Assembly (NCBI GenBank): GCA_963787445.1
Contig: CAWBCT010000005.1
Coordinates: forward strand, 416,001 to 480,000
Length of the DNA stretch: 64,000 nt
From: an uncultured archaeon
GTDB lineage: Archaea; Micrarchaeota; Micrarchaeia; Micrarchaeales; CABMGC01
Reading direction: 5' to 3'
Below are positions 1,637-52,244 of the stretch, in pieces. Under the pieces are notes generated by a model. The model worked only from the letters and a program-made list of their open reading frames with translations, was not told the DNA's origin and did no database searches. The number at the start of each line of letters is the position of its first letter. Position 1 is the first letter of the stretch. The position numbers and the translations under genes were made by a program.

Positions 1637-1918
1637 ATGAAGATAGCAAAAGACATAAACGCGTACTGCCCCTACTGCAACAAACACACACCGCACCTAG
1701 TGAAGAACGTACAGAAGAGCAAGCAGCGCGGACTGAGCAAGGCCACCAGGAGGCACAACCGCGCAATTCGCGGGTATGTGGGAAGCGTAGAGCTCAAGCT
1801 GCACCCGAAGAAGCTCGGCAAGCGCCAGAAGGTTCTCCTTGAGTGCAAGACCTGCAAGAAATCCGTCGAACGCGTATTTGGAAAGAGGACAAAGAAGAAG
1901 CTTGAGATAAAGCGGTGA
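1637..1918 (+). CDS. rpl44e: 50S ribosomal protein L44e
   Basis: YCPYCNKHT.H and LECKTCKK zinc ribbon, basic, 93 aa. Confidence 0.95.
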   Translation: MKIAKDINAYCPYCNKHTPHLVKNVQKSKQRGLSKATRRHNRAIRGYVGSVELKLHPKKLGKRQKVLLECKTCKKSVERVFGKRTKKKLEIKR

Positions 1919-1922
1919 ACGC

Positions 1923-2693
1923 GTGATAGTAAAAAAGACGCTGCCTGCGGACAAGGAACTAGTCCTCGTTAAGATAACGAAAATCCTGCCCCACGGCGCC
2001 TACTGCACGCTTACGGACTACAACCTCGACGCATACCTGCCCATATCGGAGATAGCCTCCGGTTGGATCAAGAACATACACGAGTTCATAAAGGAGGGCC
2101 AGAAGGATGTCGCCCGCGTAATCTCTGTGGACCGCGAGAAGAACGTGGTGGACGTTTCGCTGAAGAAGGTCACCAAGAAGGAGCGGGAAGACAAGATCTC
2201 GGAGCAGAACACGGAAAAAAGGTCGGAGATGCTCTTCGAGCAGTCGCTCAAGCTTTCGAACACGCTAGAGAAAAAGGAAAAGATAAAGGAAGAGCTGCTC
2301 ACAAAGGTCGAGAGCTATTCGGAACTGGTCAGCAAGGTCGCGGAGAACAAAGAGTTCCTCTCCTTCTTGAAAAACAAGCCGTTCGCCGACGCCTTTACCG
2401 AAACCGTGATCAAGAACATAAAGCCAAAGCACTACGAGGTCTCCTACCTGGTGGAGCTCAGGAGCATAAACTCCCGCTCGGGAATAACGACCATCAAAAA
2501 GATATTTGGAGAGATAGAGCAGATGGGTGTTAAGGTGCTGTACGTGGGTGCGCCGAGGTACCGCCTGAGTTCTGAAGGGTCAAGCTACCCCGATGCCGAG
2601 GAGAGGATAAAAGAGGCAAGGAAGACCCTGGACGCAAACTCAAAAAGCATTGCGTACACAATAAAAGCCGAGAAATTGCCCAACAACAACTGA
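1923..2693 (+). CDS. eif2a: Translation initiation factor 2 alpha subunit
   Basis: S1 domain with YLPISEIASGWIKNI, VDVSLKKV, and C-terminal YVGAPRYR. Confidence 0.95.
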   Translation: MIVKKTLPADKELVLVKITKILPHGAYCTLTDYNLDAYLPISEIASGWIKNIHEFIKEGQKDVARVISVDREKNVVDVSLKKVTKKEREDKISEQNTEKRSEMLFEQSLKLSNTLEKKEKIKEELLTKVESYSELVSKVAENKEFLSFLKNKPFADAFTETVIKNIKPKHYEVSYLVELRSINSRSGITTIKKIFGEIEQMGVKVLYVGAPRYRLSSEGSSYPDAEERIKEARKTLDANSKSIAYTIKAEKLPNNN

Positions 2694-46491: not shown

Positions 46492-47633
46492 ATGATGCCT
46501 GAAGTCAAGAGAGCTAAAACAGTAAGGACAGTCATGACAACCACGGCAGCCGCAGCGTTTCTTCTAGTTGCTCGACCTGCTGATGCCTGGCAAAGGAGTG
46601 CCGGAGGCGCAGCACCGCGGGCAAACGTTCAGCAAACCCACAATGTTGTAAACAATGGGAGGGGCAATGTGGGCACTTTCAACAGGAACTTTTCACTTAA
46701 TACTCGCGTAAACAACGGATTTAGAGGAAACCTCGGAGTTGCACGCACATTTGGAAACAACAGCGCAACTCGTGTCAGATAACAGAGTGAACTCACACCT
46801 AGCAGGCAACAATTTCAGGCCGAACAGGGGTATAGGTGGGAACACAGATTTTAGACTAGGCCACCGTGGAAATAATGGTATCTTTTTTGGAGGAATTAAC
46901 TACGGATTCGGGCAACGCTATCATCGCGCCTACGGCAGGGGCTGGGGCGGCTGGGGCTGCTACGGCGGCGGATGCTGGCTACCGGAGTACGTCGATAACC
47001 TGATGTGGGGCTGGAACGGCTGGCCTGTGATCTTTGCCGGTGGCGTAGAGTACGCTACCGCAGTTTACTCACCATACATTGTAAATGGAGCCCAGGTCGT
47101 AGTGGAAGGAAACCCAATGGTTACCTACGCCTATGACGTTCCAGGCCGGGGAGCAGTTAATGTTATAGGCCCTCAGCCACAGGTTGTCGATGACCAATCA
47201 ACTTCTCAGATAAACACTTTAACTGCAACCCAGAATGCACAGGAAAGAAAGATAGATGTACTGGCAGCCACACAGGTAGCTGATGAAAGAAAGTTCGGGA
47301 ATGCGATAACCACATTGGCAGAAAATCAGGCAAAACAAGGTAAAGGGTTCCAGAACGAGATTGAGTCCATAACAAAAACCCTGAAGCGCACCGCCGATGT
47401 GATCGGTGCCACTACCGAAAAGGTCAAGGACGACTGCAGATCAGGTTAAGGAACTAGAGAACTCAGATGAATCAGAAGCCAGCATGGAAGATCTGAAAAC
47501 CACTCAACGAAGAGTTCTGGCTGCTCTGATTGGCATCTCTGCCTACGCTCTTGGTGCTACCTTAGTCTCTTTGGGTCTCCACTTTAGGAAGCCTAAAAAG
47601 GCAAACACAGAAGCAGGCCAACCGGCAGGCTGA
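46492..47633 (+). pseudogene. Exported, C-terminally anchored low-complexity protein split by two +1 frameshifts
   Basis: Three successive overlapping ORFs: signal peptide + N/G/R-rich; G/W/Y-rich + coiled coil; coiled coil + TM. They read continuously if one base is removed near 46777 and one near 47429. Confidence 0.6.
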
Positions 47634-47639
47634 TGCGGG

Positions 47640-47647
47640 TTTATAAA
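47640..47647 (+). promoter_or_regulatory. TATA box for the single-repeat TBP gene
   Basis: TTTATAAA about 30 nt upstream of ATG 47677. Confidence 0.55.
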
Positions 47648-47676
47648 AGTTGCTGTGACAATAGTATCTGAATACC

Positions 47677-47994
47677 ATGGCCAAATCAAAGGGTAGAATG
47701 AGGACCTACGCCTCGCGCAAGATAAACCCCCAGATAAAAGTGCAAAACATCGTGGTCAGCGCAGACCTTCACGCCAACATCGACCTGTTTTCTCTCTCAA
47801 AGAACGTCCGCGAGGTGGACTACGAGCCCGAGCAGTTCCCCGGCGCAATCTTCCGCATAAAGGAGCCCAAGGGCGTGATCATACTTTTCAAGAACGGCAA
47901 GCTTATCTGCACCGGCTCCAACACCACGAAGAACATAAAGATCGTGCTCGAGCGCGCCGCCAAGGTAATCTCAAAGTACACGATAGACGTTTAG
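47677..47994 (+). CDS. Single-repeat TATA-binding protein (half-TBP)
   Basis: VQNIVVSADL...IDL, YEPEQFPGAIFRIKEPK.VIILFKNGKLICTG = one TBP repeat only; 105 aa. Confidence 0.88.
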   Translation: MAKSKGRMRTYASRKINPQIKVQNIVVSADLHANIDLFSLSKNVREVDYEPEQFPGAIFRIKEPKGVIILFKNGKLICTGSNTTKNIKIVLERAAKVISKYTIDV

Positions 47995-49130
47995 ACGCTC
48001 TTTTTCTTCGTCTCTTCCAGCAGCCTGTCGAACTTCCTGAAGAATATCTCCCAGGAGTAGGTGCTCTCAACTCTTTTCCTTGCCTCGTGTCCCATCCTCT
48101 CAGTGAGCGAGGCATTTCCTGACAGCTGAAGCATCCTTTCGGCCATCTCCTTCTCCGAGCCCACAAGGAAGCCCGTCTTCCCGTCCACCACTATGTCCCG
48201 CGGGCCACCCTCATTCACCGATATTACTGGCTTGCCGCTTGCCATGCCCTCCAGCAGCGAGATCCCGTGCTCCTCGTTCTGCCCGGAGAAGAGCATCGCA
48301 GTCGCGGAAGCGTGCAGCCTCCTTATCTCTTTGTCGGAGACGTTGGTCTTCATCTCCACCTTCAGCCCATGCGCGAGCTTCTTGAGCTTGTTGTAGTAGG
48401 CCTGGTGCTCTGGGTCCTTCGACAATGTTCCTGCAAGGACCAGCGAGTAGTTCTTCTTGCTCCTTGCTGAGAACTGCCTGAATGCGTTTATCACGTACTC
48501 CTGGCGCTTGTTGACCACGAAACGGGAGGGGTAGAAAAAGTATTTGTCATAGGCCTCATTGTTAAACTCCGAGGGCTCCACCCCTGGATATATTATTGTT
48601 GAATCGCGCCCATAGAACTTCTTAACATTTGACTGGGTCTTGGCGCTGTTCGCGGCGATGACCTCAATGTTCTTTATCACCCGGTTGGCTATCAGCTTGT
48701 ACATCTTCGTCATGGAGGAGTAGAGGAACTTCTGCCTGCTCGACCTGTGCTTCATCCTGGTCTCGTACAGGTCGTACACCTCTCTTGGAGGGGTGTGGCA
48801 GTACCACAGCACCCGCGCATTCTTGTGGCGGATCCACTCGCTCGGCGAGATGTGCGCATTTATCACGTCGTAATCCTCCTTTAGCTTGAGGTTGTAGAAG
48901 TTGTAGCCGTACCTCAGCCCCTGCGAGGCCCTGTAGGGCAGCATCTCGGCGAAGGGGACGTCCTTCCCGACTATCTTCACATCAACATCCTTGAACTCCG
49001 GGAAGGTGTCCTTCGGGGTGTACTCCAGCGTGTAGATGGGGGCGTCGTAGTGCTGCGCTATCTTCAGGAACACCCTCTCCGCTCCGCCCTTGAGATTTAT
49101 GTACGGTTGGGCAATAATCAGCTTCATCAT
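47991..49130 (-). CDS. Glycosyltransferase family 4
   Basis: GGAER, YCHTP, KRQ, EEHGISLLEGMASGKPV, DGKTG. Confidence 0.92.
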   Translation of the reverse strand: MMKLIIAQPYINLKGGAERVFLKIAQHYDAPIYTLEYTPKDTFPEFKDVDVKIVGKDVPFAEMLPYRASQGLRYGYNFYNLKLKEDYDVINAHISPSEWIRHKNARVLWYCHTPPREVYDLYETRMKHRSSRQKFLYSSMTKMYKLIANRVIKNIEVIAANSAKTQSNVKKFYGRDSTIIYPGVEPSEFNNEAYDKYFFYPSRFVVNKRQEYVINAFRQFSARSKKNYSLVLAGTLSKDPEHQAYYNKLKKLAHGLKVEMKTNVSDKEIRRLHASATAMLFSGQNEEHGISLLEGMASGKPVISVNEGGPRDIVVDGKTGFLVGSEKEMAERMLQLSGNASLTERMGHEARKRVESTYSWEIFFRKFDRLLEETKKKSV

Positions 49131-49166: not shown

Positions 49167-52100
49167 TCAGCCAGGTATCGAGTAGTTGTTGTTCACGTAG
49201 CTCGGCTTGGGCACAACCACAGGCAGCGTGCCCGTGAAGTTGTTGAGCTTGAATATCATTATCTGGTTCGTGTCGTTCAGGTTCAACCCCTTGAAGCTCT
49301 CAGGGTACACCAGGGTGAAGCCCGGCAGCTTTCCGAAGAAGAAGCCGCGGTAGTAGTTCGAGTTGTAGAAGTCTGAAGGGGCATTCGTAACCGTGTCGTT
49401 GGGCCCGTTGGGCAGGTAAAGGGCCATGAAGTTTATGTAGAGCGGGCCTCCCTGGGTGAACTGGCGTTCTCCATTATAGAAGAGCTGGCCGGGCGAGATC
49501 ACGATGTTCGTAAGCGTCCCGTTGGGCGTGTAAACCGGAAGCAGGCCCTGGGCATTGGCCGTTGTCTGGACGCAGTAGGTCTGGTTCACCAGCTGGGGTA
49601 TCACCTCGCCCACGGTCAGCACAGCCTTTATCGCAGTTACGGAGGCGTTTGAGAAGCTGCAGTAGTCGGATATCTGCGGGCTTGCGGGTATGTTGATGTC
49701 CACCGGATCGTGGGAGATCTCGCACTGGGAGGTGCCCGTCAGGAACGGCTGGCCGTAGAGCTGCCCCTGCGCACTCGCGTAGGCCTGGCTTGTCTGGTTT
49801 ACGTTTACGCAGGCGAGGAAGTCAAGGGCCGACCACTTTGGTATCAGCTGATCGTCGAACAGCACGTAGCCCGCCTGAACCGAGTCCATGAACGTGCCCA
49901 GGTCCTTGGGCCCGTAGCTGTCGTTCACGCCCAGCACGTAATGGGCGGCGACCTTGTAGTCCAGCGTTGCCACAGAGTTGTCGCCCCTTATGACCGCGTT
50001 GCTGTTGCCGAACCAGTTGATCCAGTCGCCGTAGTCCCACCAGGAGAGTATTCTGGGCGCATAGGGCCCCACATTGGCGCTCATCCAGGCGGTCGCATAG
50101 AGCCAGGCCTGGGGCACGGTGTTGCAGTAAAGGTTCAGCCCTAGGACGTTCGTGTTGTTCGCGTTGGAGAGCGCACTGCAGCTCGGGTTTGCAGCGGCCG
50201 CGAACACGCTGACGAGCGACATGGCCTCCAGTAGCACGACAAGCACGAAGAAGCCGTAGAGCGCGTAGGTGTACCTAATGTCCGTAGCATGGTTCTTCTT
50301 GATGTAAAGCGCCGCCTCGCCGACGAGTATGCCGATTGCAAGTATGTACGCAACCCCGAAGTGCGGCAGGTACTTCACCTCGCTAAGCCCTGCCAATGCG
50401 AGCAGGCCGATTATGACCAGGTTCAGCACGCCCGTCTTCGAGTCGTTCTTTATGATGGTGTACAGCGAAACTCCGCCAAAGAGTATCAGCACCAGGAATA
50501 TTATGAGTGGAAGGCCGAAGGTGCTCGCCCCAATTATGCCAAAACCGTTGCTTCCGAAGTTGAAGGTAATTCCTGTTATCGCATACTCCTGCACTGTCAT
50601 GAACAGCGGTATGGACGGGGTGGTGAAGTGCACGCTGAGGCTATAGTAGTCCTTGACCGGCTTCCCCAGCGGGGTGAAGAGTATGAGCAGTATCACAAGG
50701 AGTGCCAGCACGCCGAGCCATTCATAATAGGTTATCTTTTCAACCTTCTTTATTATGCCGTACTTCTTTGCCAGCGTCGGCACGTACTCAAAGACCGCGA
50801 CTATGAGGAGCGCAAAGAGCGGGAACGCCACGATCGTAGGTATGCCCACCACCGACGGGATGCTGTCCGTTATCGCAGTCGTGTAGGGGCTGTAGAGTAT
50901 GTAGAAGAGCACAATGACGCCTATGACTATGGCGTTCATCTTGTAGAATGAGAGGCTGTTCTTGTTTCTCAGCACGTCGATGAGGCCCTGGACCACTATG
51001 TACAGGGCAAGTATTCCCGCATCGACGGTGTAGTAGTGGGATCCGAGGAAGGTCGAGACGAATGCTATGCCGGCAAGTATCGCATAGCGCTTCTCGTCCG
51101 GGTTTCTCACCGCCAGAAGGTATGTGGCGAAGAAGAAGAACAGCGCAAAGATGCCCCAGGGCTCGAGCAGCTGCTCTCCAGCGATGAACGTTGAGATGAG
51201 CGTGGGCATGGCCGCAGCGAGCGCGGCGGCTATGAGCGCAGGATACTCGCCGTACTCGTGATAAACGTACATGAACACCACGAAGACCAGCAGCGCAGCG
51301 GTTATGGGAGGGTAGACGCTGCTGGTGGTGCTGAGCAGCGAGGTGCTGATCTGCGCTGTTCCCGGCGCGCCCGCAGCTATCTGGTACCAGTAGGCCTCAA
51401 GGTAGGGCACTATGGGCTGTATGCTTTGAATCGTCCCGTTCACCAGGGTCGGCCAGGCCGAGTGGCTGTAGACCAGCTGGTAACCGTAGGTAAGTATGTA
51501 CTGGGTGCTGATCATGTCGAAGTAGGGGTCGAACTCGAAGAAGTGCGTGACCGAGCTCGGCACCGAGAGGTTCACTACGCGCGAGGCGAAAGAGACCAGC
51601 ATCAGCAGGAGAAGCAGCATCCAGACGATGGGCATGTTCGACTTCTTCGTGTCCTCCCTGGAGATGAGCCCGTACTCCTCGCGCTCATGCTCCTCGTACA
51701 GCCTGCGCTCCTGCCCGGCGTGGGTCTTCTTGACACTCTCGATCTCCTCAGAGCCGGCCCCGCTCTCCCTCAGGAGCCTCATCTCATTTTCATGGCCTTC
51801 CGCCAGCGTCTTCTCCTCCCTCTCGTGCTCGCGGAGTATCTTCATGTCAACTCCGAGGTGGGAGATCTTCGCGCGCAGTTCAGAGACCCGCTGCCTGTAA
51901 TCCGCGCTCGTGCTCCTGTACTCCTTTCCGGAGCCGTTGCGCCTGATTAGCGAGGACCAGTAGGCCGGGTCAAGGGCGCCCTGCCAGTAGCATAGGATGA
52001 GCCCTATTATCGTAAGTATGATGACGTTGATGTTGTAGAGGCCCGCTGAGAAGCTGAAGAAGCTGCTTACGGGTATGAGGTAGGCCTCTGCCCAGATCAT

Positions 52101-52244
52101 CGTTGGCGGGAAGATCAGGCCGAAGATGAAGCCGAGAATCCCGATCTCGATTATGTGCATGTTTGTTTTCTTAAGAAGCGCAAGAGCTAGGAAGAAGCCC
52201 GGAACCATTATCGCCAGGAAGGCTATTATAATGTCTAATATCAT
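49167..52244 (-). CDS. aglB: Oligosaccharyltransferase AglB/STT3 with N-terminal extension
   Basis: FEFDPYF, TVQEY, SWWDYGDWI; many TM helices. Confidence 0.92.
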   Translation of the reverse strand: MILDIIIAFLAIMVPGFFLALALLKKTNMHIIEIGILGFIFGLIFPPTMIWAEAYLIPVSSFFSFSAGLYNINVIILTIIGLILCYWQGALDPAYWSSLIRRNGSGKEYRSTSADYRQRVSELRAKISHLGVDMKILREHEREEKTLAEGHENEMRLLRESGAGSEEIESVKKTHAGQERRLYEEHEREEYGLISREDTKKSNMPIVWMLLLLLMLVSFASRVVNLSVPSSVTHFFEFDPYFDMISTQYILTYGYQLVYSHSAWPTLVNGTIQSIQPIVPYLEAYWYQIAAGAPGTAQISTSLLSTTSSVYPPITAALLVFVVFMYVYHEYGEYPALIAAALAAAMPTLISTFIAGEQLLEPWGIFALFFFFATYLLAVRNPDEKRYAILAGIAFVSTFLGSHYYTVDAGILALYIVVQGLIDVLRNKNSLSFYKMNAIVIGVIVLFYILYSPYTTAITDSIPSVVGIPTIVAFPLFALLIVAVFEYVPTLAKKYGIIKKVEKITYYEWLGVLALLVILLILFTPLGKPVKDYYSLSVHFTTPSIPLFMTVQEYAITGITFNFGSNGFGIIGASTFGLPLIIFLVLILFGGVSLYTIIKNDSKTGVLNLVIIGLLALAGLSEVKYLPHFGVAYILAIGILVGEAALYIKKNHATDIRYTYALYGFFVLVVLLEAMSLVSVFAAAANPSCSALSNANNTNVLGLNLYCNTVPQAWLYATAWMSANVGPYAPRILSWWDYGDWINWFGNSNAVIRGDNSVATLDYKVAAHYVLGVNDSYGPKDLGTFMDSVQAGYVLFDDQLIPKWSALDFLACVNVNQTSQAYASAQGQLYGQPFLTGTSQCEISHDPVDINIPASPQISDYCSFSNASVTAIKAVLTVGEVIPQLVNQTYCVQTTANAQGLLPVYTPNGTLTNIVISPGQLFYNGERQFTQGGPLYINFMALYLPNGPNDTVTNAPSDFYNSNYYRGFFFGKLPGFTLVYPESFKGLNLNDTNQIMIFKLNNFTGTLPVVVPKPSYVNNNYSIPG

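What the first reader, a model, noticed from the sequence alone, without database searches (positions are those of the whole stretch)
47640..47994. Stand-alone half-TBP: one TBP repeat with its own promoter
Seen: the 105-aa ORF contains exactly one TBP repeat (NIVVS...YEPEQFPG...ILFKNGKLICTG). Both DNA-intercalating Phe positions (QFPG, LF) are retained, and there is a short basic N-tail. It has its own TATA box. The preceding ORF ends at 47633 and the convergent glycosyltransferase overlaps its stop, so no second repeat fits on either side. Established: archaeal and eukaryotic TBPs are two-repeat saddles of about 180 aa, thought to derive from a duplicated single domain. Inference: this could homodimerise into a symmetric saddle, heterodimerise with another half-TBP, or act as a TBP mimic or competitor, i.e. 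an alternative transcription-initiation or regulatory factor.
Basis: partly seen in the sequence, partly recalled or inferred. Interest (0 to 1): 0.85.

Follow-up and report, generated by a model that had tools for sequence, protein, structure and literature searches.

The report
TATA-binding protein made from separate halves
This small archaeon has no normal two-repeat TATA-binding protein: it encodes two separate one-repeat halves, of which this gene is one, so its key promoter-recognition factor must be assembled from separate subunits, much like the long-hypothesised ancestor of this protein.

Summary
Window 47677..47994 (+) encodes a 105-aa protein that is exactly one complete TBP repeat (Pfam PF00352, 1-85 of 85, E 2.2e-24). 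It has its own TATA box, and a convergent glycosyltransferase overlaps its stop.

It is neither a truncation nor an add-on to a normal TBP. The genome holds only two TBP domains: this one ("B") and a 51%-identical 111-aa paralogue ("A") about 174 kb away on the same contig. No two-repeat TBP was found.

In the order (151 genomes), B is present in 72 of 74 genomes of one family and 32 of 76 of the window's own. It is convergent with the same glycosyltransferase in 25 of 26 loci and under strong purifying selection (median dN/dS 0.054). Twelve sister genera, including two single-contig genomes, carry A alone. Other Micrarchaeota families carry one half-gene or a two-repeat TBP.

Best reading: TBP here is a non-covalent dimer of single-repeat subunits. 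B most likely pairs with A (ipSAE 0.75, controls 0.00, possibly from memory of solved TBPs). A B2 alternative TBP is not excluded.

My literature searches found single TBP-domain proteins reported only beside full-length TBPs. This is a new variant of a known kind, of high interest.

The parts
47641..47648 (+). TATA box (TTTATAAA) of the half-TBP gene, 29-36 nt upstream of the ATG. This spacing implies a leaderless or very short-leader mRNA.
   Evidence: Read directly. TATA-like A/T octamers lie at a similar distance upstream of most of the 27 B-type orthologues printed. This was judged by eye and is not a statistical test.
47677..47994 (+). TBP-B: a 105-aa protein consisting of one complete TBP repeat with a short basic N-tail. 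The stop codon is included in these coordinates.
   Evidence: ORF. Pfam PF00352 matches 1-85 of 85 at E 2.2e-24. The B clade has 99/98 support. Median dN/dS is 0.054. The predicted interface with TBP-A uses residues 10-33, 77-78 and 84-102.
47991..49130 (-). Convergent GT4-type glycosyltransferase that overlaps the end of TBP-B by 4 nt. It is a conserved neighbour and leaves no room for a second repeat downstream.
   Evidence: One search gives the ORF. PF00534 E 4.9e-30. The same gene is convergent with TBP-B in 25 of 26 B loci from families f1 and f3.
47406..47633 (+). Upstream 75-aa ORF with no Pfam match. It ends 44 nt before the TBP-B start and leaves no room for a second repeat upstream. 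It may be the tail of ORF 46739..47449.
   Evidence: A contig of run X1 lacks 1 nt at 47428, which would fuse the two ORFs.

Best explanation
The gene encodes TBP-B, one of two separately encoded single-repeat TATA-binding-protein subunits of this Micrarchaeales archaeon. The genome has no two-repeat TBP. The ten-stranded DNA-binding saddle must therefore be built by non-covalent dimerisation of ~100-aa subunits. In the model they join through their first beta-strands (antiparallel, around N24-I25-V26) and their C-terminal helices, the same surface that joins the two repeats inside a normal TBP.

The other subunit, TBP-A (111 aa, G000:C5:288970-289305, about 174 kb upstream and outside the window), is the universal one. 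It is the only TBP domain in twelve sister genera, where it must act as a symmetric A2 homodimer. TBP-B arose from a single-repeat gene in the stem of the order, changed mainly at the subunit interface, and has since been held nearly constant.

I think B most likely pairs with A to give an asymmetric A:B saddle that binds the TATA box and recruits the single, ordinary two-repeat TFB, and that TFB sets the direction of transcription.

Shown: the single repeat, the absence of a two-repeat TBP, conservation, synteny, selection and the paralogue structure. Inferred: dimerisation, the choice of partner, DNA binding and TFB recruitment.
For: - Only two TBP domains were found in the genome at E<=1. 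Both lie on contig C5, each in a short frame of 109 or 114 aa. The second is a 111-aa ORF that is 51% identical over 89 aa.
- All 41 genomes sampled around the window show only single domains at separate places. Single-contig genomes G032 and G039 have exactly two, hundreds of kb apart, even at E<=10.
- B orthologues, defined post hoc by a gap in the scores (E<=1.5e-32 and identity >=54%, against E>=6.2e-31 and <=52% for A), are found in 72 of 74 f3 genomes and 32 of 76 f1 genomes.
- B forms one clade with 99/98 support, and the split {A,B} against the rest has 96/87 support.
- Of the 104 genomes with B, all but 2 (G015 and G092) also show an A-type match.
- TBP-B is convergent with the same glycosyltransferase in 25 of 26 loci.
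- dN/dS over 85 core codons has a median of 0.054 for B (29 usable of 153 pairs; the rest were saturated or outside 0.1<dS<2) and 0.087 for A (101 of 325).
- 29 core positions are conserved and identical in A and B, including N24, V26, YEPEQFPGAI, LFKNGK and ICTG.
- Of the 14 B-defining columns, 8 lie in the predicted interface, against 19 of the other 73 (one-sided Fisher p 0.026). The rows are not independent and the interface comes from a model.
- The A+B complex scored ipSAE 0.75 in three runs, with a best control of 0.00. That mark was reached by 58 of 80 solved complexes and 2 of 110 mismatched pairs. The runs agree in >=88% of contacts and the partner pLDDT is >=86.
- TFB is a single ordinary two-cyclin-repeat gene in 25 of 25 relatives.
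Against: - Nothing here separates A:B from B2. The one complex job tested only A+B, and its pass may come from the model's memory of solved TBPs, whose two repeats pack the same way.
- The first strand of A (FKIENIVASADL) is the same in lineages with and without B (listing). A has therefore not visibly adapted to B and can presumably still form A2 when B is present.
- B was not found in 38 genomes of 12 f1 genera, including single-contig G060 and G064. It is therefore dispensable for basal transcription.
- Several B genes have weak or non-canonical starts: TTG in four genus-g1 genomes and probably ACG in 5 of 9 f3 genes examined. This could mean that B is made in smaller amounts than A.
- G000 itself is only 82% complete. 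For this one genome, the absence of a two-repeat TBP rests on its relatives.
- The origin of B is unsettled. The AU test does not reject B grouping with the C-repeats of two-repeat Micrarchaeota TBPs (p 0.093) and only marginally rejects grouping with the N-repeats (p 0.031). Window B also matches the C-terminal half of 10 of 10 NCBIfam TBP models.
- There is no expression, DNA-binding or oligomer measurement.
Confidence: 0.55

Rival explanations
1. B forms its own B2 homodimer, a second symmetric TBP used at a subset of promoters or under particular conditions, while A2 does the housekeeping. This would resemble the alternative TBP/TFB paralogues of haloarchaea, but built from half-size subunits.
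For: The A-only lineages show that a single-repeat homodimer is sufficient in this group. B keeps every conserved DNA-binding and stirrup position and is under very strong constraint. B-defining substitutions concentrate at the predicted interface, which would equally fit a switch to self-pairing. They also include L69I and K60R in the DNA-facing part, which could alter promoter preference. Weak start codons fit a low-abundance specialised factor.
Against: Most genomes have only one TFB, so there are no matched TFB paralogues as in haloarchaea. B is found without A in only 2 of 104 B-holding genomes. That is expected if B needs A, but A is probably essential anyway.
Confidence: 0.27
2. B is a regulator. 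It forms A:B dimers (or caps A) that are less active or inactive, so titrating TBP activity.
For: B is dispensable in 12 genera. It has weak or non-canonical start codons in some lineages. Its defining changes lie at the subunit interface.
Against: A decoy would be expected to lose DNA-contact or TFB-contact residues. B keeps all 29 shared core positions and evolves more slowly than A, with dN/dS 0.054 against 0.087.
Confidence: 0.1
3. The gene is an artefact: a truncated or misassembled two-repeat TBP, a decaying pseudogene, or contaminant DNA in the bin.
For: The genome is a draft bin with 82% completeness and 5.4% contamination. Its TFB gene carries a frameshift, which shows that sequence errors or decay exist in this assembly.
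Against: The same single-repeat gene in the same synteny occurs in 25 of 26 loci across two families, including single-contig genomes. Selection is strongly purifying. Independent contigs bridge both ends. A, B and TFB lie on one contig.
Confidence: 0.01

Closest known systems
Canonical archaeal TBP (two tandem repeats in one ~180-aa chain; solved examples 2z8u, 1mp9, 1pcz/1ais)
   Same: The domain is the same. The best PDB hits have E values from 2e-36 to 1e-33, and the query aligns to either repeat over its full length. The N, V, F, F and T positions of the DNA-binding face and the YEPEQFPG stirrup are conserved. The functional labels for these positions are recalled, not tested. The predicted A:B interface is the S1/S1' and helix surface that joins the repeats of a normal TBP.
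   Different: There is one repeat per polypeptide. The two subunits are encoded about 174 kb apart, each with its own promoter. No covalent link fixes the order or stoichiometry of the halves. In A-only relatives the saddle must be perfectly symmetric.
Monopartite TBP-domain proteins described by Brindefalk et al. 2013 (PMC3597702; passages read): Halobacterium TbpA and the diverged ~90-136-aa proteins of Thermococcales
   Same: They are stand-alone proteins consisting of one TBP domain, verified by genomic context.
   Different: In that paper every case sits beside one or more full-length TBPs (its Table 3). TbpA is reported there as not essential, and the Thermococcales proteins are 'distantly related to TBPs'. 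Here no full-length TBP exists, the half is 38-48% identical to ordinary TBP repeats, and it occurs as one or two genes per genome across a whole order. That paper does not mention ARMAN or Micrarchaeum (0 occurrences).
Multiple TBP/TFB paralogues of haloarchaea used for promoter selection (PMC2396416; abstract seen only in the listing)
   Same: Paralogous TBP genes in one genome could direct different promoter sets.
   Different: Those are complete two-repeat TBPs matched by multiple TFBs. Here the paralogues are half-size, and most genomes have one TFB.
Split protein genes of DPANN archaea such as Nanoarchaeum equitans (recalled from memory, no call)
   Same: One functional unit is assembled from two separately encoded polypeptides in a reduced genome.
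   Different: In the recalled cases, unlike pieces of one protein are separated. Here the two pieces are paralogous copies of the same domain. The ML tree puts A and B together and does not pair them with the N and C repeats, although fission is not formally excluded.

Membership tests
TBP (Pfam PF00352 domain family) | Sequence match to the TBP repeat over its full length | tested here: met
   PF00352 matches 1-85 of 85 at E 2.2e-24, 85.5 bits against a cut-off of 22.9.
Canonical TBP protein (NCBIfam PRK00394 equivalogs) | Two tandem repeats in one polypeptide of about 180 aa | tested here: not met
   There is one matched stretch only. NCBIfam whole-protein scores are 72-86 bits, against cut-offs of 181-347. 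No adjacent repeat occurs in any frame.
Canonical TBP protein | Conserved DNA-face residues: the Asn and Val of strand S1, the two Phe, and the Thr of ICTG (functional roles recalled from the yeast and archaeal TBP literature) | tested here: met
   N24, V26, F54, F71 and T79 are invariant in 27 B sequences and shared with A. In G000 itself, A has Ala at position 79 (listing).
Canonical TBP protein | Acidic stirrup motif (E-P-E before the first Phe) used for TFB/TFIIB binding (role recalled) | tested here: met
   Y49, E50, P51, Q53, F54, P55 and G56 are invariant and E52 is nearly invariant in B. The same motif is present in A.
Canonical TBP protein | Binds and bends TATA DNA and recruits TFB and RNA polymerase | not testable with these tools
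   No DNA-protein modelling or assay was available. TFB is present as an ordinary gene in 25 of 25 relatives.
Monopartite TBP-domain proteins sensu Brindefalk et al. 2013 | Stand-alone single TBP domain confirmed by genomic context | tested here: met
Monopartite TBP-domain proteins sensu Brindefalk et al. 2013 | Coexists with a full-length TBP in the same genome (true of every case in that paper's Table 3) | tested here: not met
   No two-repeat TBP was found in G000, in 40 relatives, or in single-contig G032, G039, G060 and G064 at E<=10.
Split gene produced by fission of a two-repeat TBP | One half orthologous to the N repeat and the other to the C repeat of related two-repeat TBPs | tested here: inconclusive
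   The ML trees group A with B: 81/31 in the 50-row tree, and the split {A,B} against the rest has 96/87 in the 107-row tree. AU tests give p 0.093 for B with the C repeats (not rejected) and p 0.031 for B with the N repeats. Only about 100 columns are available, and the repeats of the two-repeat forms undergo gene conversion.
Heterodimeric A:B TBP (proposed here) | A and B bind each other through the TBP inter-repeat surface | tested here: inconclusive
   ipSAE 0.75 against a best control of 0.00. The mark was reached by 58 of 80 solved complexes and 2 of 110 mismatched pairs. Contacts agree in >=88% of cases and partner pLDDT is >=86. The pass may reflect likeness to solved TBPs. A2 and B2 were not modelled.

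The most novel reading that the evidence does not exclude
In Micrarchaeales, and in several other Micrarchaeota families, basal transcription runs on a TBP that is not a single chain. Lineages with one half-gene would use a perfectly two-fold-symmetric homodimer of a ~100-aa protein as their only TBP. That would be a living counterpart of the pre-duplication ancestor that has been postulated for TBP but, in the papers my searches found, never reported as an organism's sole TBP. In the window's lineage a duplicated half (B) would re-create the asymmetry of normal TBP in trans, as an obligate A:B heterodimer. The two-repeat TBPs found in other Micrarchaeota families, whose repeats are being homogenised by gene conversion, would be fusions that arose from, or keep exchanging with, this single-repeat state. 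The duplication-fusion step at the origin of TBP would then have been replayed, in both directions, within one phylum.
Probability: 0.45. Interest if true: 0.92.

Novelty: new variant of a known kind. Interest (0 to 1): 0.85.

Why it matters
TBP is the universal promoter-recognition factor of archaea and eukaryotes. The reviews read here describe it as two repeats derived from an ancestral single domain (PMC7289017, passage; PMC12917281, passages, which still speak of a 'monopartite TBP prototype' as a hypothesis).

This work points to organisms in which that state is the working state. They offer three natural forms within one phylum: one-gene homodimers, two-gene pairs and fused two-repeat proteins.

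That makes several old questions directly testable with small, easily expressed proteins:
- Can a symmetric saddle bind an asymmetric TATA box, and does TFB/BRE alone set direction?
- What does covalent linkage of the repeats buy?
- How does asymmetry arise after duplication of a homodimer?

It also matters for annotation. NCBI calls many of these proteins 'hypothetical protein', and completeness or marker schemes that expect a ~180-aa TBP will misjudge these genomes.

Tried and rejected
**Recent truncation or assembly break.** It is rejected by synteny, selection, single-contig relatives and bridging contigs.

**Hidden second repeat in another frame or as a remnant.** Not found at E<=1 in a six-frame search that reads through stops.

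**Gene conversion between A and B within a genome.** This could have blurred the two classes. Identity over the shared 30-nt motif is 0.850 within genomes against 0.830 between genomes (permutation p 0.015). The difference is small and explainable by shared codon usage. It is nothing like the 94-99% seen in 11 of the 12 two-repeat genes compared (the twelfth 80%).

**Adaptation of A to the presence of B.** The S1 strand of A is identical in lineages with and without B (listing), so there is no signal.

**Expression.** No RNA holder was listed among 9 runs. This says nothing either way. Parts of the stretch without contig cover are likewise no finding.

**The search of protein representatives.** It returned 4728 hits at E<=1e-3, and only 5 of the best 150 have a single stretch. 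Because scores add over two repeats, this ranking says little about how common half-TBPs are.

**The 107-row AU tests.** These did not return.

**Literature.** No paper describing a genome whose only TBP is a single-repeat protein, or a split TBP in DPANN or Micrarchaeota, was found in the searches. I read passages from four papers: PMC3597702, PMC8407392, PMC12917281 and PMC7289017. Supplements were closed and not consulted. Gene tables in the supplements of DPANN genomics papers could list such genes without comment.

**Unpublished genomes.** G038 and G214 are included in the counts. L029 (from G038) was dropped from all alignments and trees. No conclusion depends on either genome.

**Rows dropped and labels used:**
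- L002 (a duplicate of the window) and L029 were dropped from the row set.
- L061 was dropped from the later trees as foreign.
- A and B rows of genus g1 were subsampled for the 107-row tree (26 of 36 A rows, 21 of 27 B rows) and again for the 50-row tree.
- L051 has a 1-aa deletion that shifts part of its core.
- The label 'iain' in my trees rests on one NCBI name (P0055, Candidatus Diapherotrites archaeon). The other five rows carrying it are unnamed.

Full report
**1. The observation**

Window 47677..47994 (+) is an ATG-started ORF of 105 aa. Pfam's TBP model matches it once, residues 19-101 against model positions 1-85 of 85, at E 2.2e-24. Ten NCBIfam TBP models match at E 1e-20 to 1e-24, but at only 72-86 bits against whole-protein cut-offs of 181-347. 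The protein is therefore one full repeat and not a full TBP.

Against the PDB, the single query aligns to both repeats of archaeal TBPs, for example 2z8u residues 7-98 and 101-181. TTTATAAA lies 29-36 nt upstream of the ATG. The preceding ORF ends at 47633. The convergent ORF 47991..49130 overlaps the gene's end by 4 nt and is a group-1 glycosyltransferase.

**2. The gene is not alone, and there is no ordinary TBP**

A six-frame search of the window's genome (1.05 Mb, 19 contigs, 82% complete, 5.4% contamination) found two TBP domains at E<=1. Both are on contig C5, each in a short open frame of 114 or 109 aa.

The second is a 111-aa ORF, L001 1468..1803 (-), which corresponds to G000:C5:288970-289305. 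It lies about 174 kb from the window gene and is 51% identical to it over 89 aa. I call it A and the window gene B. TFB lies on the same contig, so none of these genes is bin contamination.

**3. Conservation**

In the 41 genomes nearest the window, every TBP hit is a single domain in a short frame at its own place.

With the window protein as query on 151 genomes of the order (>=80% complete), the hits fall into two classes separated by a gap that I chose after seeing the data. B-type hits have E<=1.5e-32 and identity >=54%. A-type hits have E>=6.2e-31 and identity <=52%.

- B is present in 72 of 74 genomes of family f3. One genome had no hit at all, and one had two hits of which neither is B-like.
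- B is present in 32 of 76 genomes of the window's family f1.
- Of the 44 f1 genomes without B, 3 had no TBP hit.
- Another 3 belong to genera whose other members have B; these genomes are 80-85% complete.
- The remaining 38 fall in 12 genera in which no searched genome has B. The largest are g4 (8 genomes), g12 (10) and g34 (6).

At E<=10, single-contig genomes G060 and G064 hold exactly one TBP domain. Single-contig G032 and G039 hold exactly two, far apart.

TBP-B is convergent with the same glycosyltransferase in 25 of 26 B loci from both families.

Nei-Gojobori dN/dS over 85 core codons has a median of 0.054 for B (29 usable of 153 f1 pairs) and 0.087 for A (101 of 325). The other pairs were saturated at synonymous sites or outside 0.1<dS<2.

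Contigs from three other runs of one study bridge the gene and both flanks.

**4. The wider phylum**

In 201 genomes of the phylum (>=85% complete), 196 have a TBP domain. I fetched 60 regions and scored them with the window protein.

- Families f4, f5, f8, f9, f13 and f19 have two-repeat TBPs of 191-220-aa frames (12 loci).
- Families f2, f7, f10, f11, f12, f14-f18 and f24 gave only single-repeat genes (14 loci).
- Most genomes of those families show one match, although G122 has three.

Public protein collections already hold many such ~100-aa proteins: 80 of the best 120 hits have one domain and are 90-150 aa long. NCBI names them 'hypothetical protein' of Micrarchaeota or Micrarchaeia archaea. 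Some come from bins labelled as other taxa. JGI names them TATA-box-binding protein. Named records place the B-type gene in bins called Candidatus Micrarchaeota, Micrarchaeia, Micrarchaeales and Micrarchaeaceae.

**5. How A, B and the repeats of two-repeat TBPs relate**

A careful ML tree of 107 domain sequences (102 columns; the bootstrap had not fully settled) gives these results:

- B is one clade, with 99/98 support.
- A is one side of a branch, with 55/78 support.
- A branch with 96/87 support separates {A,B} from all other Micrarchaeota domains.
- The stem leading to B is long (1.53).

A 50-row tree gives B 100/99, A 94/87 and A+B 81/31. This favours duplication of a single-repeat gene in the stem of the order, followed by fast change and then stasis of B.

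It is not proof. The AU test does not reject B grouping with the C repeats (p 0.093) and only marginally rejects B grouping with the N repeats (p 0.031). Window B matches the C-terminal half of 10 of 10 NCBIfam models, while G000's A splits 5 and 5.

The repeats of the two-repeat forms also undergo gene conversion. Their longest identical amino-acid runs (12-42 aa) are 94-99% identical in DNA in 11 of the 12 genes compared, and 80% in the twelfth. Trees of those repeats cannot be read naively. A and B within one genome show no comparable effect.

**6. Mechanism**

A saddle needs two repeats. In genomes with one half-gene it can only be a homodimer. In the window's genome it can be A2, B2 or A:B.

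A and B share 29 conserved, identical core positions, including the S1 Asn and Val, the stirrup YEPEQFPGAI, LFKNGK and ICTG. The functional meaning of these positions is recalled from the TBP literature.

Fourteen of 87 core columns define B against A, and 8 of them lie in the predicted subunit interface (I20, Q23, V27, H32, A33, L91, S99, V102). Of the other 73 columns, 19 lie in the interface. One-sided Fisher p is 0.026, but the rows are related and the interface comes from a model.

The A+B model scored ipSAE 0.75 in three runs, with a best control of 0.00. The mark was reached by 58 of 80 solved complexes and 2 of 110 mismatched pairs. The runs agree in >=88% of contacts and the partner pLDDT is >=86. 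The contacts pair the two S1 strands antiparallel around residues 22-28 and add the C-terminal helices. Because solved TBPs contain the same packing within one chain, this pass shows likeness, not binding.

TFB is one ordinary two-repeat gene in 25 of 25 relatives, so it can supply the direction of transcription.

I put A:B at about 0.55, B2 as an alternative TBP at about 0.27, a regulatory or titrating role at about 0.1, and artefact at about 0.01.

**7. Comparison with what is known**

Brindefalk et al. 2013 (PMC3597702, passages read) describe single TBP-domain proteins in Halobacteria (TbpA, stated there to be non-essential) and in Thermococcales (distant from TBP). All of these sit beside full-length TBPs. 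ARMAN and Micrarchaeum are not mentioned in that paper.

A DPANN comparative-genomics paper merely counts TBP as conserved (PMC8407392). A 2018 review and a 2026 paper still treat the single-repeat form as an ancestral hypothesis. Eight full-text searches found nothing on a genome whose only TBP is single-repeat. Supplements were not available.

I therefore rate this a new variant of a known kind. The domain family is known. The organisation is new: separately encoded halves with no fused TBP, lineages with one or two genes, and a dedicated B paralogue.

**8. Limits**

- There are no expression, oligomer or DNA-binding data.
- G000 is incomplete.
- The class threshold was set post hoc.
- The trees rest on about 100 columns.
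- Relatives are not independent.
- Counts include two unpublished genomes (G038 and G214), on which nothing depends.

Noticed in passing
L092 1138..1824 and 1796..2053 (G000:C5:575677-576592, outside the window): The genome's only TFB gene is broken by a frameshift exactly between its two cyclin repeats: a 228-aa ORF with the Zn ribbon and repeat 1, then an overlapping 85-aa ORF with repeat 2. In 25 of 25 relatives both repeats lie in one open frame of 228-428 aa. The 228-aa frame (G027) starts 137 nt from its contig's end. The break is therefore probably a sequencing error or a very recent lesion, not a split TFB.
   Followed up: partly
window 47428 (ORFs 46739..47449 and 47406..47633): A contig of run X1 that is otherwise nearly identical lacks one base at 47428. 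That would fuse the 236-aa and 75-aa ORFs upstream of TBP-B into one gene. Neither ORF has a Pfam match.
   Followed up: no
L088, L083, L031, L091, L080 (TBP-B genes of family f3), just upstream of the conserved core: In 5 of 9 f3 B genes examined there is no ATG, GTG or TTG between the in-frame upstream stop and the core. All five share GGTG, 5-6 nt of spacer, then ACG followed by Ala/Ser/Pro-Ala-Lys, like the Met-Ala-Lys start of f1 genes. In two of them ACG is the first codon after the stop. This suggests a conserved non-canonical ACG start behind a Shine-Dalgarno-like GGTG. Four genus-g1 B genes start at TTG.
   Followed up: partly
L052-L060, L075-L077 (two-repeat TBPs of families f4, f5, f8, f9, f13, f19): The N and C repeats within one gene share identical amino-acid runs of 12-42 residues. 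Their DNA is 94-99% identical in 11 of the 12 genes compared and 80% in one (L057). An example is L052, with 42 aa at 98%. Synonymous sites between species are saturated, so this points to ongoing gene conversion between the two repeats.
   Followed up: partly
L061 (G159:C43:733-5251): One f3 genome has, besides its A and B halves, a 185-aa two-repeat TBP of ordinary euryarchaeal type (FSSGK/FASGK instead of FKNGK) on an 8.4-kb contig. It is probably foreign DNA in the bin, possibly from a host.
   Followed up: no
L063, L064, L065 (G122, family f7, contig C1): This genome has three single-repeat TBP genes at separate places, two of them nearly identical (clade support 99). Duplication of the half-gene has therefore happened more than once in the phylum.
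   Followed up: no
window 49167..52244 (-): A 1025-aa, apparently multi-pass membrane protein next to the glycosyltransferase has no Pfam match at E<=1e-3. It is nonetheless conserved beside the GT and TBP-B in 18 of the 19 f1 loci examined, at 40-60% identity.
   Followed up: no
P0055, P0056, P0093, P0103, P0113, P0032 (two-repeat proteins): The EQFPGAI and FKNGK signature of the Micrarchaeota domains is shared by both repeats of a further group of two-repeat TBPs, one of which NCBI names Candidatus Diapherotrites archaeon. Their N and C repeats also cluster with each other (97/94) and not with the N or C repeats of euryarchaeal TBPs.
   Followed up: partly
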